This document shows, in pieces, positions 3,616-54,496 of a stretch of 64,000 nt of DNA. This DNA is from a virus: positions 1 through 64,000 of IMG/VR virus record IMGVR_UViG_3300032092_000005, one strand, 5' to 3'. Every line of letters begins with the position of its first letter. Position 1 is the first letter of the stretch. The notes below the pieces were generated by a model that saw only the letters and a list, made by a program, of their open reading frames with translations, ran no database searches and was not told where the DNA came from. The position numbers and the translations under genes are program-made.

Positions 3616-5910
3616 ATGGCAGATTTAAAAACACAATTTGGATTTACAGATAGTCTATTTGACGCAATCAATGAAGTAAAAAAAGCTTCAGGTACTAGTC
3701 TTGCTGGCGCTGATGCGCAGATCAAAAGAGCAAAAGCAAATTTAGATGCGGCAGAATTAAGAGCAAGCCATGAAAAAGAACGCGAAAAAGTTCAAAAGAA
3801 AAAAGAATCTCTCCGTACAGAAGAAGTTGAAGAAACCTCAGAAAAGTTTGATCCTCTTAAGCACGTTAAGAATCCTACATCAGGCGAAAAGAAAGCAGCT
3901 AAAGATGTAAAGCGTAGTAGTTATGCTGACCGTGCAGCTATGTTAAAATCAGCACAAGCAGGCGGTAGACTGAAAGAAGAAGAAGAAGTTGAAGAAGAAA
4001 GTCACCAGTCTAAGACTACAATGAAGCACATTAACAATCCAAATGCTGCTGAAAAGAAAGCTGCTAAAGATATCAAGCCTGGTATTAAAGGTGTTAAAGA
4101 TAGATTGGATATGCTCAAAGCTGCAAAGGCACGCGGCGCTTTGAAAGAAGAAGAGCTAGAAGAATCGTTTAGTCCTTCACAAATTGCAGCACTGAAAAAA
4201 GAATACTCTAAGATTAATGGTATTGATCCTTCAAGCGATAACTACAAAAAGCTAATCGCTATGCTAGACAAATTAGACTTAGCTTCATTGAAGTCACTAG
4301 CTGGCGCTGATATCAAGTTTGTTTCTAGTCTTGCTAAGAATCGTGTTATGAGAAAGAGCATGAAGAAAGAAGAAGTTGAGATTGAAGAGGGCACTGGCGA
4401 TCTAAAACCAGGATGGATGCTAAAGAAAGATCCAGAGTTGGCTAAGAAAGTAAAAGAAAAACAAGACTTAGCTAAGAAACGAGAAGCTTCATACGGCGAC
4501 AAGTCTGCTGGAAAGTCTGTAGCAGAAGGCATCATGGACAAGATCAAGGCAGTAAAGCGTGGTATGGATGCTAAAGCTAAAGCTGATGATCATTTTGACA
4601 AAGCTGGTGATCCAAAAAATCCAAATAAATCTAAAGACTTGAAACGCGCAGTTAAGTACCATAACTTAGTCAACAAAGAAGAGACTGAGATTGAAGAAGA
4701 ATTGTCTCCGGCACAAAAAGCAATTGATAAGAACAAGAATGGTAAGATTGATGGGACTGACTTGGCACATCTACGTAGCAAAAAGAAACAACCTCAAGGT
4801 GCCGAATTTGCTGCTGCAAGACGCAAAGAAAGAATGGCATCAAATGGTCGTATGGATGAAGAAGTTAAAGTTGGAGACAAAGTTAGCTTTGATCATGAGA
4901 TGAAAGCGATTCCTGGCAAGACTATGAAAAAGATAGGAACAGTACACAAAGTTGAAGACGGCACTGTACACATTAAAGTTAAAGATAAATATGGCGTGAT
5001 AACTCATAAGAAAAGTGCAAGCGAACTAACTAAAGAAGAGTTTGAGTCTATTGACGAAGCGCCAAAGTACGACAACAAATATACAATCTATCACAAAGAC
5101 TATTCTAGCGCAGTTCAACATGCAGCAGTTCATGCTGGCAAACAAGGTTATGAAATCGACCATGATGATTGGGACCGTGTAGTTGCAATGGGTCCTAAGA
5201 AGCCTTCTGCTGGCAAGACAAATATTTTAAATGTGTCGCTAAAGAAAGACGGCAAAGAATCTAAGAAGAAACTTCATATGCAAGTCTACAATATGGACAA
5301 CAAAGGCTATGAGTTAAATACATACGTTGAAGAGATGGAGCAAGGTGTGGCAGAAGGCTTAATAAAAGATATCAAGCGTTTGGCTACAGGTAAAGATGTT
5401 AAGAGTCGTGCTGGACAAGAAATAGCCAAATCACAAGATGCCAGTATGAAAGGCGATACTAAAACTTCTAAAAAGCATTTTGGCCGTTTTGACAAGTTAG
5501 ATAAGTTAGCAAATAAAGAGCAAGGTGTGGCGGAAGAAGTTCAAGAATTAGATGAGTTGAACAAAGACACTGTATATTCATACGCAAAGAAGTCTGAAAA
5601 AGATCAAGATGATCAAGAGAAAAAAATGGATAAAGCATTCAAAGCTAATGATCCAAAAAAAGCTAATGATGCAGGCAGAAAGTTTCTGAATAGATTAAAA
5701 GGTTCAGAACGTGCTGAGAAAAGATTGAACAAAGAAGAAGTTGAACTAGACGAAGCAGCAAAGCAGCCTACAAAAAGATTCAAAGATATGAAAAAGAAAA
5801 ACACTGCTGGAACTAAATCGGAAGAAGGCGCAAGCAAAAAAGGTGAACCTTTAAGCGGCAAGAAAGAAGCTATCGAAGTTAATCCAGAATTGCATAAGAA
5901 TCAAAAGTAA
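3616..5910 (+). CDS. Lys/Glu-rich modular putative internal head polyprotein
   Basis: Basic modules separated by IEE/LEE/VAE/LDE acidic linkers; EF-hand-like DKNKNGKIDGTD. Confidence 0.55.
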   Translation: MADLKTQFGFTDSLFDAINEVKKASGTSLAGADAQIKRAKANLDAAELRASHEKEREKVQKKKESLRTEEVEETSEKFDPLKHVKNPTSGEKKAAKDVKRSSYADRAAMLKSAQAGGRLKEEEEVEEESHQSKTTMKHINNPNAAEKKAAKDIKPGIKGVKDRLDMLKAAKARGALKEEELEESFSPSQIAALKKEYSKINGIDPSSDNYKKLIAMLDKLDLASLKSLAGADIKFVSSLAKNRVMRKSMKKEEVEIEEGTGDLKPGWMLKKDPELAKKVKEKQDLAKKREASYGDKSAGKSVAEGIMDKIKAVKRGMDAKAKADDHFDKAGDPKNPNKSKDLKRAVKYHNLVNKEETEIEEELSPAQKAIDKNKNGKIDGTDLAHLRSKKKQPQGAEFAAARRKERMASNGRMDEEVKVGDKVSFDHEMKAIPGKTMKKIGTVHKVEDGTVHIKVKDKYGVITHKKSASELTKEEFESIDEAPKYDNKYTIYHKDYSSAVQHAAVHAGKQGYEIDHDDWDRVVAMGPKKPSAGKTNILNVSLKKDGKESKKKLHMQVYNMDNKGYELNTYVEEMEQGVAEGLIKDIKRLATGKDVKSRAGQEIAKSQDASMKGDTKTSKKHFGRFDKLDKLANKEQGVAEEVQELDELNKDTVYSYAKKSEKDQDDQEKKMDKAFKANDPKKANDAGRKFLNRLKGSERAEKRLNKEEVELDEAAKQPTKRFKDMKKKNTAGTKSEEGASKKGEPLSGKKEAIEVNPELHKNQK

Positions 5911-26669: not shown

Positions 26670-27530
26670 ATGATTCTGCTCGACCTAAACCAAGTCATGA
26701 TTTCAAACCTCATGATGCAGCCCGATATCGCTAAAGGCGTTGACGAAAACATGGTACGTCACATGGTGCTGAATAGCATTCGTGGCTACAATGTGAAATT
26801 CAAAGAAAAGTATGGTGAGATTATCATCTGTACCGATTCTACAAAGTACTGGCGCAAAGATATCTTTCCTTACTACAAAGCTGCACGGAAGAAGTCCCGA
26901 GAAGATTCTCCGTTCGATTGGAATCTAATCTTCCAGACGTTGAATAAAATTCGTGAAGAGTTGAAAGAGTATTCTCCGTACCGTGTACTGCATGTTGACA
27001 AGACGGAAGCGGATGACATTATTGGTACACTTTGCCACAAGTATGGTGTACAACTAAACAACAGTGCAACAGAAAAGATTCTGATCCTGTCTAGCGATAA
27101 AGACTTTATGCAATTGCAGAAGTACACTAACGTAGAACAATATAGTCCTATGGCTAAGAAGTTTCTCAAGGCTGATGACGCAGAAGAATTCCTGAAACTG
27201 CACATTATCAAAGGCGATACTGGTGACGGCATTCCTAACTTCCTATCAGAAGATGATGCTATTGTTGCAGGTGTGCGCCAAAAAGCTGTAACTGAGAAAA
27301 AGCTAAATATATGGCTAAAAGAAGAACCACAAGTTTTTTGCGATAGCGATATGCTGCGGAGATACAAGCGTAATGAGGCTCTAATTGACCTCAGCAAAGT
27401 TCCTGCTGAATATCAAGAAAGCATACTGAATACATACAATGGTACCCCTAAAAAAGGTCGTGAGAAACTTTTAACATACTTTATCAAGAATCGCATGAAG
27501 CTATTGATAGAACACCTACAGGAATTTTAA
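26670..27530 (+). CDS. rnh: T4-type RNase H / 5'-3' exonuclease
   Basis: WRK..FPYYK..R, EADDIIG, SSDKDF.QL, GD.GDGIPN. Confidence 0.93.
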   Translation: MILLDLNQVMISNLMMQPDIAKGVDENMVRHMVLNSIRGYNVKFKEKYGEIIICTDSTKYWRKDIFPYYKAARKKSREDSPFDWNLIFQTLNKIREELKEYSPYRVLHVDKTEADDIIGTLCHKYGVQLNNSATEKILILSSDKDFMQLQKYTNVEQYSPMAKKFLKADDAEEFLKLHIIKGDTGDGIPNFLSEDDAIVAGVRQKAVTEKKLNIWLKEEPQVFCDSDMLRRYKRNEALIDLSKVPAEYQESILNTYNGTPKKGREKLLTYFIKNRMKLLIEHLQEF

Positions 27531-36477: not shown

Positions 36478-36552
36478 GTGCCTTTAGTAAAATGGATATT
36501 ACACAACGCTACGAACGTTGGAGTGGGAGTTCGATTCTCTCAGGGCGCACCA
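36478..36552 (+). tRNA. tRNA-Arg(ACG)
   Basis: CAACG-CTACGAA-CGTTG, CCA. Confidence 0.9.
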
Positions 36553-36562
36553 AGAGATATAT

Positions 36563-36654
36563 GGAAGATGATGCAGCGGGGTTGGTCCTGCGACTGGCCT
36601 TGAAAACCAGGTTCTCAGAAATGGGATGGGGTTCGACTCCTCCGTCTTCCGCCA
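36563..36654 (+). tRNA. tRNA-Ser(TGA)
   Basis: CT-TGA-AA loop, long variable arm, GCCA. Confidence 0.88.
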
Positions 36655-36655
36655 G

Positions 36656-36695
36656 TTGACAATGAAGCTTGATTGTGATACAATAGCTTCATTGT
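36656..36695 (+). promoter_or_regulatory. Promoter for Y-like RNA/DUF2828 unit, inside an 11-bp inverted repeat
   Basis: TTGACA-17-TACAAT; ACAATGAAGCT/AGCTTCATTGT. Confidence 0.7.
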
Positions 36696-36703
36696 AGAGT
36701 TTT

Positions 36704-36869
36704 AGGATAGGTACAGCAACCCACTAATACCGAATCGTTTAGTCACTGTGGTAAAAAACTGGAGTACGGAGTCTTGACCGAGTACGTTGAAGGTTTGACA
36801 CTGAAACATACTAAGCAAGGAGAGTTTCGATTTTCTCTCTGTAAACAAAAAGTAGACAACTATCCTGTT
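36704..36869 (+). ncRNA. Y-RNA-like scaffold 1
   Basis: AGGATAG/CTATCCT terminal stem, GTACAGCAA, internal T-arm-like hairpin. Confidence 0.65.
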
Positions 36870-36884
36870 ATATTTGAAAGTTTT

Positions 36885-37017
36885 AGGATCGGTACAGCAA
36901 CATTAATCTTTACTAAAAGATGGTTCGAGCTAGTTTAAGGCAATAACACCCTTATTTCTTGAACCCACGTGAGTTTCGAATTCTCACTCGAAAGAAAAAG
37001 TAGAAACCGATCCTGTT
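36885..37017 (+). ncRNA. Y-RNA-like scaffold 2
   Basis: AGGATCGGT/ACCGATCCT stem, GTACAGCAA, GTGAG-TTTCGAATT-CTCAC hairpin. Confidence 0.65.
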
Positions 37018-37024
37018 GTATTTT

Positions 37025-37149
37025 AGGTTAAGTTCCGCAAAACAAAATATGCAAACATAAACCGAAAGTCTGGTTCGATTCCAGCTAGGGCACGTAGTGT
37101 CTTAGTAGTGTAATGGCAGCACATTGGTACGCAAAAAGTTTAACCTGTT
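37025..37149 (+). ncRNA. YrlA-like RNA (scaffold 3 with circularly permuted tRNA domain)
   Basis: AGGTTAA/TTAACCT stem; T-arm, closed acceptor hairpin, D-arm in permuted order. Confidence 0.75.
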
Positions 37150-37167
37150 GATTTGAAAGGAAATATT

Positions 37168-38607
37168 ATGTCAACATTTGTAGAAGCCGTAGTAAACCAA
37201 GAAGCCCGTACTGCCAATGGCATGAAGGCACGTAAGTCCACTGCTAATGCGGTTGTAGATTTATTCTACAATGCAGGTGCAAGCCGTGGTAAGAATATTG
37301 TTCCTGCATTCGCAGCAGCATTTGCGCAAGACCGTGATCTAGCATTGCGCGTAGCCGCCTGGTTGCGTGATGTGCGTAGCGGTGCAGGTGAACGTCAATT
37401 GTTCCGTGATATCTTAGGGTATCTGGAAAACAATGATCGTGTAGCAGCAAAGGCACTTGTTGCAAAGGTTCCTGAATTGGGACGTTGGGATGACTTGTTC
37501 ATCTTCAATTCTAAGGAAATGAAGGAAGCAGCATACACATTGCTTGGTGACGCATTGCGTGAAAAGAATGGCCTTGCAGCTAAGTGGACACCTCGTCAAG
37601 GCAAGCTTGCAGCAGAAATTCGTACATTCTTCGGAATGTCGCCAAAGTTCTACCGCAAGTCTCTAGTTGAAATGACTAACGTTGTTGAAACTAACATGTG
37701 TGCAAAGGACTGGGACGGGATTAACTTCTCGCATGTTCCATCTGTAGCAGCATCGCGGTACAAGAAGGCATTCAACCGTAACACTCCAGCTTATGCAGCA
37801 TACGTTGCAGAGTTGATGAAGGATCCAAAAGATCGTACAGTTGAAGTGAAGGTTAATGCTGGTGCAGTGTACCCATATGATGTACTGAAAGGTCGCATCT
37901 CTGGTTATGGTGTGTCGTTTGACAAGACAGAATTGGATCTGATCCAAAAGCAATGGGAAGCACTACCTAACTTTGTTGGGGATGCAAACATTCTGCCTTT
38001 GGTTGACGTTTCTGGTTCTATGACTTGTCCAGCAGGTGGATCAGGCTCAAAGTCTAAGCTGACTTGCCTGGAAGTTGCAGTCTCTCTGGGATTGTATCTT
38101 GCAGACAAGAACAAGGGTAAGTTCAAGGATACGTTCTTGACTTTTTCTAACAAGCCAGAGTTGATGACTTTGAAGGGCAACATCAATGAGAAGATCAGCC
38201 AAATGGTTTCTTCTGATTGGGGAATGACTACTGACTTGAATCGTGCGTTTGACAAAATCCTTAGTGTAGCAATTAAGGGCAATGTGCCAAACAGTGAAAT
38301 GCCAGAAATGTTGCTGATCCTTTCGGACATGCAATTCAATTCTTGTGTTGCACATGACGATTCGGCTATCGAAATGATGGCACGTAAGTACGAAGCAGCA
38401 GGATACGCCTTACCAAAGGTTGTGTTCTGGAACTTGAATGCTGCATACGGCAATGCGCCTGTGAAGTTTGACAAGTCTGGCACTGCATTGGTTTCGGGGT
38501 TCTCTCCAGCCATTGTTAAGCCTCTGCTATCTGGCGACATGGAAGACTTTTCACCAGAGGCTGTGATGTTGAAGACAATCATGGATGACCGTTATACTGT
38601 GATTTAA
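37168..38607 (+). CDS. DUF2828-family helical + vWA protein (Ro60/TROVE-like)
   Basis: RDVR.G.GER..FR, GRWDDL, AAKW.PR, FS.VPS.A, DVSGSM MIDAS, SDMQF, VFWNL. Confidence 0.85.
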   Translation: MSTFVEAVVNQEARTANGMKARKSTANAVVDLFYNAGASRGKNIVPAFAAAFAQDRDLALRVAAWLRDVRSGAGERQLFRDILGYLENNDRVAAKALVAKVPELGRWDDLFIFNSKEMKEAAYTLLGDALREKNGLAAKWTPRQGKLAAEIRTFFGMSPKFYRKSLVEMTNVVETNMCAKDWDGINFSHVPSVAASRYKKAFNRNTPAYAAYVAELMKDPKDRTVEVKVNAGAVYPYDVLKGRISGYGVSFDKTELDLIQKQWEALPNFVGDANILPLVDVSGSMTCPAGGSGSKSKLTCLEVAVSLGLYLADKNKGKFKDTFLTFSNKPELMTLKGNINEKISQMVSSDWGMTTDLNRAFDKILSVAIKGNVPNSEMPEMLLILSDMQFNSCVAHDDSAIEMMARKYEAAGYALPKVVFWNLNAAYGNAPVKFDKSGTALVSGFSPAIVKPLLSGDMEDFSPEAVMLKTIMDDRYTVI

Positions 38608-39947: not shown

Positions 39948-39953
39948 GATTTT

Positions 39954-40016
39954 AGAATGCGTTCAGCAAAAAAATACATTGAACTTTTAATTCAAACCGT
40001 AAAAAAGCATTCTGTT
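39954..40016 (+). ncRNA. Y-RNA-like scaffold 4 with Lys-UUU anticodon arm
   Basis: AGAATGC/GCATTCT stem, GTTCAGCAA, TTGAA-CTTTTAA-TTCAA. Confidence 0.65.
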
Positions 40017-40038
40017 GTTTACATATATAATACGTTGT

Positions 40039-40114
40039 GTACGTGTGCGCCGAACGGCTAGGTAGCGGATTGCAAATCCGTATAATGCAGGTTCGAATCC
40101 TGTCACGTACTCCA
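40039..40114 (+). tRNA. tRNA-Cys(GCA)
   Basis: TT-GCA-AA loop, U73-CCA. Confidence 0.88.
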
Positions 40115-40128
40115 CACAAAAGATTTAT

Positions 40129-40207
40129 TCCGTAGAACCCGAGCATGGTGCATGGGCTTGACTGTTAATCAATGTTTAGCTGGGATCGTTACCCAGATAC
40201 GGAGCCA
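40129..40207 (+). tRNA. tRNA-Asn(GTT), atypical T-loop
   Basis: CT-GTT-AA loop, GCCA; T-loop ATCGTTA. Confidence 0.8.
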
Positions 40208-40217
40208 AAAGTTATAT

Positions 40218-40293
40218 TGCGGGTAGTGCCCAGTCAACAGTCCAGTCTCATAAGCTCGGATCATCGGAGGTGCGAATCCTTCACCCGCAACCA
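40218..40293 (+). tRNA. tRNA-(f)Met(CAT), degenerate D-arm
   Basis: TGCGGGT/ACCCGCA, CT-CAT-AA loop, ACCA. Confidence 0.7.
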
Positions 40294-40298
40294 GTTTT

Positions 40299-40356
40299 AG
40301 GATCAGTTCAGCAAACTTAAAAATTTCTCTTGTTCGGAAAAAAAGTTGATCCTGTT
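40299..40356 (+). ncRNA. Y-RNA-like scaffold 5
   Basis: AGGATCA/TGATCCT stem, GTTCAGCAA, TTTCT-CTTGTTC-GGAAA. Confidence 0.6.
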
Positions 40357-40363
40357 GTTTTTC

Positions 40364-40437
40364 GCCCTATTAGTATAATGGTATTACACCTGTTTTGTAA
40401 TCAGGTTACGGCAGTTCGATTCTGTCATGGGGCACCA
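40364..40437 (+). tRNA. tRNA-Thr(TGT)
   Basis: TT-TGT-AA loop, ACCA. Confidence 0.88.
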
Positions 40438-40447
40438 AGTCATTTTT

Positions 40448-40521
40448 GCGGGGTTCATTTAATGGTAGGATTTCAGCCTTCCAAGCTGATAGTGCGAGTT
40501 CGATTCTCGCACCCCGCTCCA
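40448..40521 (+). tRNA. tRNA-Gly(TCC)
   Basis: CT-TCC-AA loop, TCCA. Confidence 0.9.
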
Positions 40522-40528
40522 ATATTTT

Positions 40529-40602
40529 CTCGGTGTGGTGAAATGGTATCACTCTTGGTTTGGGACCAAGGAGCGCAAGTTCGATTCTTGCCACCGAGAC
40601 CA
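40529..40602 (+). tRNA. tRNA-Pro(TGG)
   Basis: TT-TGG-GA loop, ACCA. Confidence 0.9.
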
Positions 40603-40610
40603 CAAGTTTT

Positions 40611-40673
40611 AGGATAGTTACAGCAAAAAACAAAGCTAACTATTGGTTGTCTAGCGACAAAAGCTATCCTGTT
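40611..40673 (+). ncRNA. Y-RNA-like scaffold 6
   Basis: AGGATAG/CTATCCT stem, TTACAGCAA. Confidence 0.6.
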
Positions 40674-40688
40674 GTTTAATGAGGCTAT

Positions 40689-44761: not shown

Positions 44762-45781
44762 ATGAGAAAATTAGCTACTATTCGAAAGATTGATGCATTG
44801 AATCCTATTGAGGGTGCTGATGCTATTGAATGCGCAACCGTAGGTGGTTGGAAAGTTGTTGTTAAGAAAGGTGAATACAATGTAGGAGACCGTGTTGTCT
44901 ACTGCGAGATTGACTCATGGATTCCTACTGAGTTAGCACCATTCCTATCAAAGGGAAAAGAACCTCGAGAATTCGAAGGCATCAAAGGTGAACGTCTTCG
45001 TACCATCAAGCTGCGCGGTCAGTTGTCACAAGGTTTGCTGTTGCCGTGGACTGTAGGAGGCGGCGTGCTGGACATGGCGCAGATGTTTGCAGGCGAAGGC
45101 GATGATGTATCGGAACTGCTTGGTATTGTGAAGTGGGAAATGCCCATGAATGCACAACTTGCGGGCATGGCACGTGGTAACTTTCCATCTGCAATTCCTA
45201 AGACTGACCAAGAACGTGCGCAAAATCTTGTTGGAGAAATTCTTGCTGCTGCACAAGCTGGTACTCAATTTGAGATTACCGAAAAGCTTGAAGGCTCTTC
45301 AATGACTTGCTACTTGATTGATGGAGAATTTGGTGTTTGCTCACGTAACCTCGACTTGAAGGAAACTGAAGGCAATGCATTCTGGCAAGTTGCGCGGCGT
45401 GATGACATTGAGGCAAAAATGCGTATCGGCCGAAATTTTGCTATTCAAGGCGAGTTGATTGGTCCTGGCATTCAAGGTAATATCTACAAACTACGTGAAC
45501 CAGAGTTCCGTGTGTTTGATGTATACAATATTCAAGGTGGTTGCTATTTGGATCCAGCTGACCGGCGTGAGTTGATTGAGAGCATGGGACTGAAACATGT
45601 TCCTGTTATGTACGTTGACAAGGATCTTGGTGTTGGCTCTGTAGAAGAAATTCTGCAATGGGCTGAAGGTGCATCAAAGCTGAACGAAAAGCAAGAACGT
45701 GAAGGTATCGTATTTAAGGAAGTGAATGGCGGTATGTCATTCAAGGCTATTTCAAATAAGTATCTGCTAGGAGAAAAGTAA
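44762..45781 (+). CDS. RNA ligase, DRB0094 (Rnl5-type) family with N-terminal OB domain
   Basis: PIEGADAIE.A.V.GW, LRGQ.SQGL, KTDQER, TEKLEGSS motif I, QGELIGPGIQGN, EGIVFK, FKAISN. Confidence 0.9.
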   Translation: MRKLATIRKIDALNPIEGADAIECATVGGWKVVVKKGEYNVGDRVVYCEIDSWIPTELAPFLSKGKEPREFEGIKGERLRTIKLRGQLSQGLLLPWTVGGGVLDMAQMFAGEGDDVSELLGIVKWEMPMNAQLAGMARGNFPSAIPKTDQERAQNLVGEILAAAQAGTQFEITEKLEGSSMTCYLIDGEFGVCSRNLDLKETEGNAFWQVARRDDIEAKMRIGRNFAIQGELIGPGIQGNIYKLREPEFRVFDVYNIQGGCYLDPADRRELIESMGLKHVPVMYVDKDLGVGSVEEILQWAEGASKLNEKQEREGIVFKEVNGGMSFKAISNKYLLGEK

Positions 45782-53591: not shown

Positions 53592-54056
53592 ATGAAGAGT
53601 ATGCAAATACAAACGAAAGATGGTGTTACCTATAGTCATGTTCCAGAAATCGGTGGAACTATTTTGGTTCCTTTGTTTTATAAACACATAGCAGAATTGA
53701 TGAAAGCAGGTCATTGTACTCATAAGACTTTCTACTTAGTCACAGATAGTACTCAAGCGATAATTGCAGAAGTTGATGATAAAATAGTGGGGTTTCTGAT
53801 ATTTAATCATGATAAAGAAATGAAAACGATGTATAATGCTCTTGGTCACATTAATATTGACTATAGACGAAGAGGTATATTTGAACTAATAAATAAAAGT
53901 TGGCATACACACGCAAAGATCAATAATACTGATTATGTTCAAGGATACATATCAGTTGAAAATGGAGTGTCTGTAAAAGCCCATAGAAAAATGGGCTATG
54001 ATTTATTCATTTCAAAAGACTTTTCTGGATACTACGAATACATGCGTAAGATATAA
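53592..54056 (+). CDS. GNAT acetyltransferase, copy 2
   Basis: Paralog of copy 1; YRRRGI, N..S...HRKMGY. Confidence 0.8.
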   Translation: MKSMQIQTKDGVTYSHVPEIGGTILVPLFYKHIAELMKAGHCTHKTFYLVTDSTQAIIAEVDDKIVGFLIFNHDKEMKTMYNALGHINIDYRRRGIFELINKSWHTHAKINNTDYVQGYISVENGVSVKAHRKMGYDLFISKDFSGYYEYMRKI

Positions 54057-54099
54057 ATAAAACTATTGACACAGAAGAAGTTCTGTGTTATAATATTGG

Positions 54100-54471
54100 T
54101 TATAGTTGTATGAAGCAAAGAGAAACAGGTTCTGGACGGGGGTGCGAATCCCCCCACCTCCACCAAAAGTAAATATATGATTGATAAACCATTACCACCA
54201 GCAACAAAGTATTGGTGTGACTCATGCGGAACTTTAGAAAGTCCAGATAAACACAAAAATATTTTTTGTAAGTTGTTTAAATGGTTAGATAGTGTTTTCT
54301 TTTGATGGGGGTGCATAGTTTCGACAGGGCAAAGAGTAACAGAGTGGACAACTCACCAGAGTAGGTGTAAAAACTAAATCAAAGTAAACGCAAACGACTC
54401 ACAGTTCGCATTAGCAGCCTAAACGCCGCTTAGGGTTTCGATAGCTTTCCTCGTAACAGAATAAGCTATCA
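54100..54471 (+). ncRNA. ssrA: Circularly permuted two-piece tmRNA, tag ANDSQFALAA
   Basis: T-arm/acceptor + CCA (to 54165) precede GGGGGTG (54307) with G3:U70; tag at 54390-54422; upstream TTGACA-17-TATAAT promoter. Confidence 0.9.
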
Positions 54472-54496
54472 CTTTTATTAACATGGAGATATACAT

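What the first reader, a model, noticed from the sequence alone, without database searches (positions are those of the whole stretch)
37025..37149. Circularly permuted tRNA mimic directly upstream of the Ro-like gene
Seen in order: ACCGA (37061), T-arm CTGG-TTCGATT-CCAG (37070-84), closed acceptor hairpin CTAGGGCAC-GTA-GTGTCTTAG (37085-105), TA, D-arm GTGT-AATGGCA-GCAC (37108-22), A, TTGGT (pairs with ACCGA). The anticodon loop is replaced by the link to the scaffold stem, and there is no CCA end. Known: this is the topology of bacterial YrlA RNAs. It is the strongest independent support that these scaffolds are Y RNAs, although the handle sequence differs from the canonical Ro-binding helix.
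Basis: partly seen in the sequence, partly recalled or inferred. Interest (0 to 1): 0.8.

Follow-up and report, generated by a model that had tools for sequence, protein, structure and literature searches.

The report
Phage tRNA-shaped partner RNA of Ro60-like protein
Just upstream of a phage gene for a ring protein that folds like the RNA-surveillance protein Ro60 lies a small RNA shaped like a tRNA with its ends rewired and its anticodon loop missing, so it is probably the counterpart of the bacterial YrlA "Y RNA" in an undescribed, widespread branch of the Ro60 system.

Summary
Window 37061-37128 holds, in this order, an anticodon-stem 3' half, a 4-nt variable loop, a T arm, a sealed 9-bp acceptor hairpin, U8-A9, a D arm, A26 and an anticodon-stem 5' half. 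A 9-bp "handle" stem (37024-32 with 37139-47) encloses them.

- **Not chance:** 13 distinct relatives show 14 compensatory pairs. In 45 model-aligned units, 27 of 30 pairs are compensatory, and 0 of 500 shuffles reach this.
- **tRNA likeness:** ARAGORN calls a normal tRNA once the halves are re-joined in silico, and none in the native order.
- **Neighbouring gene:** 37168-38607 is Pfam DUF2828+DUF7788, not TROVE. Its AlphaFold model (pLDDT 94) matches only Ro60/Rsr structures over its full length.
- **Rfam YrlA:** it misses the window unit. It hits the equivalent units of related phages over the whole model at 26-37 bits, below the gathering score of 69.
- **Distribution:** the same RNA type lies beside DUF2828 genes in Felix O1-like, mycobacterial and rhizobial phages; handle units without it in Listeria, Vibrio and Campylobacter phages.

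Verdict: a YrlA-like Y RNA with a different handle motif (xUxCxGCAA), so a new variant of a known kind. Binding is inferred, not shown. This scan's notes report the same system in at least 259 other genomes.

The parts
36656..36684 (+). Sigma-70-type promoter TTGACA-17-TACAAT with TG. It precedes three handle RNAs and the Ro60-like gene.
   Evidence: 11 of 12 consensus matches, and no terminator-like site up to 38800. Co-transcription is inferred.
36880..37021 (+). The preceding handle RNA (unit 2), with non-tRNA cargo. Unit 1 lies at about 36704-36866.
   Evidence: the R1 model matches through the handle only, at 24.3 bits. Sequence read; fold z = -3.28.
37024..37032 (+). Handle 5' arm, TAGGTTAAG. 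It pairs with 37139-37147.
   Evidence: 9 bp, invariant among close relatives; 8 of the 9 pairs are compensatory across 45 units.
37032..37040 (+). Conserved handle motif GUUCCGCAA (family pattern xUxCxGCAA). It stands where YrlA has its Rsr-binding motif GNCGAA.
   Evidence: Invariant in alignment A1. UAACAGCAA or UUACAGCAA occupy the same place in cultured phages. Rfam aligns ACAGCAAA of L045 to acggCgaA of YrlA.
37041..37060 (+). A-rich 5' linker of variable sequence. G37037-C37132 and C37038-G37131 may close it.
   Evidence: the two G-C pairs are invariant, and the linker itself varies.
37061..37065 (+). ACCGA, the equivalent of the anticodon-stem 3' strand (tRNA positions 39-43).
   Evidence: helix 3: 4 of 5 pairs are compensatory (ACTGA/TCAGT, CCTC/GAGG, CCCC/GGGG).
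37066..37069 (+). AAGT, the equivalent of the variable loop.
   Evidence: ARAGORN's cloverleaf of the re-joined sequence.
37070..37084 (+). T arm: CTGG / TTCGATT / CCAG, with T54, T55, C56 and A58 in place.
   Evidence: GGTTCGATTCC is invariant; the stem covaries (CCGG, CATGG).
37085..37105 (+). Acceptor-like hairpin: 9 bp sealed by the loop GUA, with no free ends and no CCA.
   Evidence: compensatory changes. Among relatives the length runs from 0 to 9 bp.
37106..37107 (+). TA, the equivalent of U8 and A9.
37108..37122 (+). D arm: GTGT / AATGGCA / GCAC, with A14, G18, G19 and A21 in place.
   Evidence: TAATGG is invariant; the stem covaries (ATGT/GCAT, GTCT/AGAC).
37123..37128 (+). A26, then TTGGT, the equivalent of the anticodon-stem 5' strand.
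   Evidence: helix 3.
37129..37138 (+). 3' linker ACGCAAAAAG. The A run before the 3' arm is conserved.
   Evidence: GC.AAAAG is invariant. The same A run is present in cultured phages.
37139..37150 (+). Handle 3' arm TTTAACCTG (37139-47), then the tail TTG (37148-50). With G37147 this is the family's conserved GUU(G) ending.
37156..37163 (+). Shine-Dalgarno region AAAGGAAA of the Ro60-like gene.
   Evidence: Read. It lies 4 nt before the ATG at 37168.
37168..38607 (+). Gene for the Ro60-like protein (479 aa): a helical-repeat ring plus a vWA domain with a MIDAS motif. Pfam DUF2828 + DUF7788; PHROG 850.
   Evidence: D280, S282, S284, T355 and D387 are invariant; pLDDT 94; the top 12 matches are all Ro60/Rsr; the profile's top four PDB matches are Ro60/TROVE.

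Best explanation
The unit at 37024-37150 is a non-coding RNA of the Y RNA type. It is the functional counterpart of bacterial YrlA, and its partner is the Ro60-fold protein encoded 19 nt downstream.

**Likely sequence of events**
1. The promoter at 36656-84 transcribes three handle RNAs and the gene as one RNA (inferred).
2. The units are cut apart at their U-rich leaders and GUU tails (inferred).
3. The handle docks on the ring protein, as Y RNA stems dock on Ro60 (inferred from neighbourhood and fold). The handle is the terminal stem, the motif GUUCCGCAA and the A-rich 3' linker.
4. The cargo folds into the tRNA L-shape. The folding is shown by covariation and by the invariant elbow nucleotides G18, G19, T54, T55 and C56.
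5. Its acceptor end is sealed and its anticodon loop is replaced by the link to the handle. It therefore cannot be charged or decoded.
6. It presents only the elbow and the acceptor/T stack to proteins that recognise tRNA shape.

**Proposed role**
The RNA would tether or bait tRNA-recognising enzymes on the ring. Candidates are PNPase as in Rsr-YrlA, tRNA repair enzymes, or host tRNA-directed defence nucleases. This would be part of the contest between phage and host over tRNA. Whether the RNA acts as a tether or as a decoy is not resolved.
For: **Structure**
- Covariation supports every helix.
- The elbow nucleotides are invariant while the stems vary.
- ARAGORN calls a tRNA after re-permutation.

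**Partner protein**
- The AlphaFold model has pLDDT 94. Foldseek gives only Ro60, Rsr and phage Ro60 as full-length matches, at E 8e-9 to 5e-6.
- The MIDAS residues are invariant.
- The profile's best PDB matches are Ro60.

**Link between RNA and gene**
- One promoter and no terminator.
- About 35 of 80 related contigs hold a full unit just upstream of the gene.
- Whole-genome scans with model R1 give a single match each in phages wV8 and Finemlucis. They lie 1 kb and 0.1 kb downstream of the DUF2828 gene, on the same strand.
- Finemlucis has no tRNA gene within 2.5 kb. The RNA therefore follows the gene, not the tRNA arrays.

**Kinship with YrlA**
- RF02553 matches equivalent units over the full model at 26-37 bits, with E as low as 1e-4 in 57 kb.
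- It also matches the phiM7 unit, at 35 bits.

**Shape matters, not the position of the ends**
- Phages BUCT-ZZ01 and MS02 carry the same two-dimensional shape permuted the other way. The acceptor is open and ends in CCA, and the handle is closed by a UGUAAA-type loop.

**Function**
- In the Felixounavirus Bas63, the protein gp130 is Ro60-like and counters the Ppl defence system (preprint 10.1101/2024.10.10.617714).
- RNA-repair genes lie nearby: an Rnl2-type ligase at window 45266-45748, RtcB in LMTA-94 and an RNA ligase in GAP32.
Against: - There is no expression, processing or binding data for this RNA or this protein.
- Rfam YrlA does not match the window unit at all. Matches to relatives stay far below the gathering score.
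- The canonical Rsr-binding motif GNCGAA is absent.
- The protein has no sequence-level TROVE match.
- The single-sequence fold energy is unremarkable (z = -0.93).
- I saw no handle units in the intergenic gaps I read beside the DUF2828 genes of GAP32, PX29 and S-CoN_Ph7. The pairing is therefore not universal, or the RNAs lie elsewhere in those genomes.
- The acceptor-like hairpin ranges from 0 to 9 bp among relatives. Partners that measure from the elbow to the acceptor end are therefore unlikely to be the target.
Confidence: 0.75

Rival explanations
1. The unit is a cis-acting part of the mRNA leader or of the tRNA-operon transcript. A tRNA-shaped structure would act as a processing or stabilising signal for the downstream gene, independently of the protein product.
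For: The unit ends 19 nt before the ATG and shares its promoter. tRNA-like structures are known entry points for RNase P and RNase Z. The locus lies inside a tRNA array.
Against: - In relatives the tRNA-like unit is not fixed next to the start codon. It is second from last in L042 and L045.
- It lies downstream of the gene in wV8 and Finemlucis, and 1.3 kb upstream in phiM7.
- The sealed 9-bp hairpin offers no leader or trailer for RNase P or RNase Z.
- The same handle carries quite different cargo elsewhere.
Confidence: 0.08
2. The RNA is a free-standing tRNA-shaped decoy or adaptor whose handle binds some other phage or host protein. The Ro60-like gene is only a neighbour.
For: No binding data exist. 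The handle lacks the canonical Ro-binding motif. It resembles the core of Dictyostelium Class I RNAs, whose only shown direct binder is an RRM protein, Rnp1A (PMC7919456). Other handle copies in this window lie about 1.3-2.1 kb downstream of the gene's end (39949-40677).
Against: Handle units flank DUF2828 genes in phages of five bacterial phyla. The protein has the fold of the one protein family known to carry such RNAs. In Finemlucis and LMTA-94 the units abut the gene.
Confidence: 0.12
3. The unit is a decayed junction between two tandem tRNA genes: the T arm and acceptor 3' strand of one, then the acceptor 5' strand and D arm of the next. On this reading it has no function of its own.
For: Tandem tRNA junctions give the same order of parts. 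My regular expression and the middle of model R1 do pick up real junctions weakly.
Against: - There is no CCA, discriminator base or spacer.
- The two acceptor strands pair with each other and covary.
- The outer half-stems pair across the unit and covary.
- The unit is conserved with compensatory changes in 13 or more distinct sequences, and always sits inside a handle.
Confidence: 0.02
4. The unit is a true circularly permuted tRNA gene, as in Cyanidioschyzon, matured through a circular intermediate into a decoding tRNA.
For: The 3' half precedes the 5' half, and ARAGORN accepts the re-joined sequence.
Against: There is no anticodon loop. The half-stems run into linkers of 20 and 10 nt and then into the handle. 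The acceptor is sealed by 3 nt. The acceptor length varies from 0 to 9 bp among relatives.
Confidence: 0.01

Closest known systems
YrlA, the bacterial and mycobacteriophage Y RNA bound by Rsr/Ro60 (Rfam RF02553; Chen et al. 2014, PMC4201824)
   Same: - The order of parts: terminal stem, then T arm, closed acceptor-like hairpin and D arm.
- Invariant elbow nucleotides.
- Encoded next to a Ro60-fold gene on the same strand and co-transcribed with it.
- Other Y-like RNAs in the same operon, as with YrlB.
- Equivalent units of related phages match RF02553 end to end at 26-37 bits.
   Different: - The partner protein is DUF2828/DUF7788, not TROVE by sequence.
- The handle motif is xUxCxGCAA, not GNCGAAN0-1G.
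- The window unit has a 5-bp anticodon-like stem and a 4-nt variable loop in place of a V hairpin.
- Scores lie below Rfam's gathering threshold, and the window unit is not matched at all.
Thermus phage phiLo Ro60 with Yrl1 and Yrl2 (PMC12135203; PDB 9KOP, 9L5Y)
   Same: A phage-encoded Ro60-fold ring with Y-like RNAs encoded directly upstream. 9KOP and 9L5Y are among the structural matches of the window protein. That particle binds host PNPase.
   Different: phiLo Ro60 is a TROVE protein. Yrl1 and Yrl2 are described as stem-bulge-stem RNAs with a CGAA motif, and the paper never uses the term 'tRNA-like'.
Bas63 gp130, a Felixounavirus protein (PhageMaP preprint 10.1101/2024.10.10.617714)
   Different: No RNA was identified there. 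Here a concrete RNA family is defined. In wV8 it lies at 26814-26940 (locus L083:4910-5036), under a hypothetical CDS annotated on the opposite strand.
Dictyostelium Class I RNAs (Rfam RF01414; Kjellin et al. 2021, PMC7919456)
   Same: This concerns the handle only.
- A short stem joins the 5' and 3' ends.
- The conserved motif CCUUACAGCAA lies next to the 5' arm.
- The interior is variable.
- The RNA ends in CUGU.
- RF01414 gives below-threshold, full-model matches on handle units: 16.7, 21.7 and 28.1 bits.
   Different: Class I RNAs are eukaryotic, 42-65 nt long, carry no tRNA-like cargo and are reported as unique to Dictyostelia. Their known binder is an RRM protein. Homology is unproven. 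I could not check whether dictyostelids encode a DUF2828 protein.
Two-piece (circularly permuted) tmRNA and permuted tRNA genes
   Same: Circular permutation of a tRNA-like domain. The same phage encodes a permuted tmRNA at 54052-54477.
   Different: There is no tag reading frame, no anticodon loop and no free acceptor end.

Membership tests
YrlA (Rfam RF02553) | Reaches the Rfam gathering score (69 bits) | tested here: not met
   No match at E<=10 on window 36500-37250. Equivalent units in relatives score 26.4-37.5 bits over model positions 1-114.
YrlA (Rfam RF02553) | Conserved T-arm-like and D-arm-like stem-loops with a closed acceptor-like hairpin between them, all enclosed by a 5'/3' stem | tested here: met
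YrlA (Rfam RF02553) | The motif GNCGAAN0-1G near the 5' end, the presumed Rsr-binding site | tested here: not met
   The corresponding place holds GUUCCGCAA. The CGAA at 37063-66 lies in the covarying half-stem and is not conserved.
YrlA (Rfam RF02553) | Encoded within 4 kb of a Ro60 orthologue, on the same strand | tested here: inconclusive
   The unit lies 19 nt upstream on the same strand. The protein has the Ro60 fold but is not TROVE by Pfam. It is a paralogous family rather than an orthologue.
YrlA (Rfam RF02553) | Bound by the Ro60 protein in vivo and carries tRNA modifications (pseudouridine 55, dihydrouridine) | not testable with these tools
   Needs immunoprecipitation and CMC or alkali primer extension.
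Ro60/Rsr (TROVE + vWA) | A ring of helical repeats closed by a vWA domain with a MIDAS motif | tested here: met
   Model with pLDDT 94. The top 12 Foldseek matches are all Ro60/Rsr, with TM 0.36-0.64 (most 0.5-0.64; Rsr 2NVO lowest). DxSxS, T and D are invariant.
Ro60/Rsr (TROVE + vWA) | Sequence match to Pfam TROVE (PF05731) | tested here: not met
   Only DUF2828 and DUF7788 match. There is no TROVE match at E<=10. The profile against PDB reaches Ro60 only at E 0.03-0.07.
tRNA (RF00005) or permuted tRNA gene | A 7-nt anticodon loop and a free acceptor end that can be processed and receive CCA | tested here: not met
   No tRNA is called in the native order. There is no anticodon loop, and the acceptor is sealed by GUA.
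Dictyostelium Class I RNA (RF01414), handle only | Terminal stem, 11-nt motif CCUUACAGCAA and CUGU end, scoring at or above 41.5 bits | tested here: not met
   The architecture is shared, but scores are 16.7-28.1 bits. The window unit's own motif, GUUCCGCAA, is more diverged.

The most novel reading that the evidence does not exclude
The DUF2828 ring protein and its xUxCxGCAA-handle RNAs form a second, ancient Ro/Y-RNA-type particle, distinct from Ro60-YrlA. Its handle would be homologous to the core of the unexplained Dictyostelium Class I RNAs. Its interchangeable tRNA-shaped cargoes, including this elbow-only mimic, would act as baits that hold host tRNA-directed defence enzymes on the ring. 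That would explain the counter-defence phenotype of Bas63 gp130.
Probability: 0.12. Interest if true: 0.9.

Novelty: new variant of a known kind. Interest (0 to 1): 0.64.

Why it matters
Ro60 and its Y RNAs are a long-studied but poorly understood RNA-surveillance system.

- **Scope of earlier searches.** Searches for bacterial Y RNAs were limited to genomes annotated with a TROVE protein (PMC4201824).
- **Size of the new branch.** This unit shows that a much larger, sequence-divergent Ro60-fold family also carries YrlA-type tRNA mimics, on a different handle. tblastn finds the family in 711 phage records.
- **A concrete candidate.** The PhageMaP authors could only guess at Y RNAs for Bas63 gp130, a protein with a measured counter-defence phenotype. 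This RNA family supplies candidates in genetically tractable phages of E. coli, Listeria and M. smegmatis.
- **What the particle needs.** Two circular permutations give the same shape, and the cargo can be swapped. This indicates which features the particle requires.

Tried and rejected
- **Rfam on the window**: no YrlA or Y_RNA match. The kinship showed only on related loci.
- **Single-sequence folding**: z = -0.93. The MFE keeps the handle and the acceptor hairpin but mispairs the T and D arms, so it is not informative on its own.
- **phmmer of the protein against PDB**: only noise. A profile and a structure model were needed.
- **The search for homologous proteins**: returned only relatives at 79% identity or more, useless for a deep alignment. 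I used the search of protein representatives instead.
- **Supplements of Chen et al. 2014**: not held, so I could not see which 22 phages they listed.
- **Origin from one of the phage's own tRNAs**: the D arm is most like those of tRNA-Trp and tRNA-Gln, but no tRNA is a clear parent. I dropped this line.
- **RtcB in the phage's own genome**: absent. An Rnl2-type ligase is present.
- **DUF2828 in Dictyostelium:** I could not test this. No eukaryotic genome or named protein set was within reach, and the paper search for DUF2828 gave only plant and tardigrade papers.
- **Handle units in GAP32, PX29 and S-CoN_Ph7:** I looked in the intergenic gaps beside their DUF2828 genes and saw none.

Full report
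**1. What is in the sequence**

The window is the first 64 kb of a 152-kb uncultured phage record. It carries 25 tRNA genes and a two-piece tmRNA.

- ACCGA 37061-65 and AAGT 37066-69.
- T arm CTGG/TTCGATT/CCAG 37070-84.
- A 9-bp hairpin closed by GTA, 37085-37105.
- TA 37106-07.
- D arm GTGT/AATGGCA/GCAC 37108-22.
- A 37123 and TTGGT 37124-28.

ACCGA and TTGGT pair with each other. The four-way junction is therefore a tRNA cloverleaf read from position 39 round to position 31. Its acceptor is sealed and its anticodon loop is missing.

The half-stem continues through linkers of 20 and 10 nt into an outer 9-bp stem, 37024-32 with 37139-47. The conserved string GUUCCGCAA (37032-40) follows the 5' arm, and an A run precedes the 3' arm. 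The unit ends 19 nt before the ATG at 37168.

A near-consensus promoter (TTGACA-17-TACAAT, 36656-84) lies upstream of three such stem-enclosed units. No terminator-like site lies between it and the end of the gene.

**2. Is it more than chance?**

- ARAGORN and Rfam call no tRNA here in the native order.
- When 37099-37128, a 7-nt loop and 37061-37091 are joined in silico, ARAGORN calls a regular tRNA. It has a 7-bp acceptor, a 4-bp D stem, a 5-bp anticodon stem, a 4-nt variable loop and a 4-bp T stem.
- Eighty related viral contigs were fetched through the neighbouring protein. Many carry the same unit in the same place.
- Thirteen distinct sequences were aligned. RNAalifold found the handle, T arm, acceptor hairpin and D arm on its own.
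- With the anticodon-like stem added, 92.6% of cells pair and 14 pairs change on both sides. None of 500 shuffles reaches this, and slid controls pair at 29-46%. Examples are ACCGA/TTGGT changing to ACTGA/TCAGT, CCTC/GAGG and CCCC/GGGG, and the D stem GTGT/GCAC changing to ATGT/GCAT and GTCT/AGAC.
- The elbow nucleotides (GGTTCGATTCC and TAATGG) are invariant.
- A covariance model of this alignment (R1) finds full-length units in about 35 loci. On 45 model-aligned units, 27 of 30 pairs are compensatory, including 8 of the 9 handle pairs. That alignment is fitted to the model.
- The single-sequence fold energy is not remarkable (z = -0.93).

**3. The neighbouring gene**

- The 479-aa product matches Pfam DUF2828 and DUF7788 and PHROG 850 ("RNA-binding protein"). 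It does not match TROVE even at E<=10.
- A 121-sequence alignment of representatives at 40-58% identity shows an invariant MIDAS motif.
- The profile's four best PDB matches are Ro60/TROVE chains, but weakly, at E 0.03-0.07.
- The AlphaFold model has pLDDT 94 and pTM 0.92.
- Its 12 best Foldseek matches are all Ro60, Rsr or phage Ro60, at E 8e-9 to 5e-6, TM 0.36-0.64 (most 0.5-0.64) and about 500 or more aligned columns. The next matches are isolated vWA domains at E about 1e-2.
- "Ro-like" is therefore right at the level of fold. The family is a divergent paralogue of Ro60.
- tblastn finds it in 711 phage records: Felixounavirus, Listeria, Staphylococcus, Enterococcus, Campylobacter, Vibrio and mycobacteriophages, and jumbo phages.

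**4. Relation to YrlA**

- Chen et al. 2014 define YrlA by three things: a 5' motif GNCGAAN0-1G; T and D stem-loops with a closed AS hairpin between them and often a V hairpin before T; and a location within 4 kb of Ro60 on the same strand.
- They searched only genomes annotated with a TROVE protein.
- The window unit has the topology and the location but not the motif. Rfam RF02553 does not match it.
- In related contigs, however, the units in the equivalent position have a V hairpin and a 7-bp AS. RF02553 matches these over the whole model at 26.4-37.5 bits (L045, L046, L012, L044, L042, L066). It also matches the phiM7 unit at 35.2 bits.
- In that alignment the handle motif ACAGCAAA falls on the YrlA motif acggCgaA.
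- I read this as a working likeness and probably distant kinship, but not membership of the Rfam family.

**5. Distribution and a second topology**

R1 gives matches in three cultured phages:

| Phage | Locus match | Bits | Position relative to the DUF2828 gene |
|---|---|---|---|
| Mycobacterium phage Finemlucis | L085:4028-4161 | 33.9 | 0.1 kb downstream; no tRNA gene within 2.5 kb |
| Escherichia phage wV8 | L083:4910-5036 | 33.6 | 1 kb downstream; lies under a hypothetical CDS on the opposite strand |
| Sinorhizobium phage phiM7 | L088:1082-1208 | 21.3 | 1.3 kb upstream |

In whole-genome scans the wV8 and Finemlucis matches are the only ones in their genomes, and both are on the gene's strand.

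By eye, handle units of the form stem-UAACAGCAA-cargo-A run-stem'-GU flank the gene in Listeria phage LMTA-94, Vibrio phage MS02, Campylobacter phage CP30A and Synechococcus phage BUCT-ZZ01. I saw none in the gaps I read in GAP32, PX29 and S-CoN_Ph7.

In BUCT-ZZ01 and MS02 the same shape occurs permuted the other way. It is a tRNA in normal order with an open acceptor and CCA, whose anticodon loop is replaced by a handle closed with a UGUAAA-type loop (Rfam tRNA matches of 114 nt; folds). This argues that the shape is what is selected, namely a tRNA body joined to the handle through the anticodon stem, and not the position of the ends.

Other cargoes on the same handle include acceptor-less tRNAs and bare anticodon arms. 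In the window, R1 matches four further units through the handle alone.

**6. How it probably works**

*Shown*
- The RNA structure is under selection.
- The elbow is conserved.
- The unit sits in one transcription unit with a Ro60-fold gene, to the extent that consensus promoter and terminator scans can show this.
- The pairing of RNA and gene recurs across phyla.

*Inferred*
- The handle docks on the ring as Y RNA stems dock on Ro60.
- The sealed tRNA body without an anticodon shows only the elbow and the acceptor/T stack to tRNA-shape readers.
- Because the AS length varies from 0 to 9 bp among relatives, partners that measure from the elbow to the acceptor end, such as RNase P, are unlikely targets.

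*Context pointing to tRNA damage and repair*
- The phage's own tRNA set.
- An Rnl2-type ligase at 45266-45748.
- RtcB, an RNA ligase and an Appr-1-p processing gene next to the homologues in other phages.
- The report that Bas63 gp130 is Ro60-like and counters the Ppl defence system.
- phiLo Ro60 with its Yrl RNAs binds host PNPase.

I cannot decide between a tether and a decoy.

**7. Rivals**

- *Leader or processing element.* This is unlikely because the position of the unit relative to the start codon is not conserved.
- *Decayed tRNA junction.* This is excluded by covariation of the acceptor and outer half-stems.
- *True permuted tRNA.* This is excluded by the missing anticodon loop.
- *Handle binds another protein.* This stays open at about 0.12.

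**8. Novelty**

My paper searches found no description of RNAs partnered with DUF2828 proteins. The nearest is the PhageMaP speculation.

This scan's own notes report the same protein-handle system in at least 259 other genomes, and the likeness to Dictyostelium in at least 51. Those notes are unchecked. I reached both points through my own Rfam and covariance-model results.

I class the finding as a new variant of a known kind: a YrlA-type Y RNA on a different handle, with a divergent Ro60-fold partner.

Noticed in passing
window 40300-40354; L045:786-894; L091:2010-2068: Rfam Dicty_Class_I_RNA (RF01414) gives full-model matches on handle units at 21.7, 16.7 and 28.1 bits, below its gathering score of 41.5. 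The shared features are a terminal stem, the motif (U)UACAGCAA next to the 5' arm, an A run before the 3' arm and a CUG(U) end. Class I RNAs are reported as unique to Dictyostelia (PMC7919456).
   Followed up: partly
L082:4076-4198 and 4209-4326; L091:2247-2364: These are tRNAs in normal order with an open acceptor and CCA. Their anticodon loop is replaced by a closed handle hairpin followed by AUUCUGCAA or UAACAGCAA. This is the reverse circular permutation of the window unit. In MS02 one such unit is nested between the two halves of another.
   Followed up: partly
window 36563-36650: A class-II tRNA-like gene ending in GCCA, with the anticodon loop CUUGAAA (anticodon UGA, Ser). ARAGORN misses it, and Rfam scores it only as tRNA-Sec at 35.3 bits, below the gathering score.
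   Followed up: no
L083:4871-5128 (Escherichia phage wV8, gp048): The hypothetical CDS annotated on the minus strand overlaps the plus-strand YrlA-like handle RNA at 4910-5036. It is probably a mis-annotation.
   Followed up: partly
L061:876-1304: A GOLLD RNA (RF02032, 196.6 bits, above its gathering score) lies in a related phage contig, about 0.7 kb upstream of that contig's tRNA-mimic unit.
   Followed up: no
window 54052-54477: A two-piece, circularly permuted tmRNA (RF04321 at 114.9 bits; beta_tmRNA at 103.5 bits) is encoded by the phage.
   Followed up: no
window 45266-45748: An Rnl2-type RNA ligase domain (PF09414, 110.7 bits) lies 6.7 kb downstream of the Ro60-like gene. No RtcB is present in the 152-kb record.
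   Followed up: partly
L048:7-116; L012:1005-1113; L011:1253-1362; L031:320-427: These handle units carry a tRNA without an acceptor stem: a D arm, an anticodon arm with loop CUUCUAA or CUUUUAA, and a T arm. Here the handle takes the place of the acceptor stem rather than the anticodon loop.
   Followed up: no
window 36817-36836 and 36971-36989: Units 1 and 2 each end in a hairpin with a T-loop-like sequence (GAGAG-UUUCGAUUUU-CUCUC and GUGAG-UUUCGAAUU-CUCAC). It is conserved in many relatives just before the A run.
   Followed up: no
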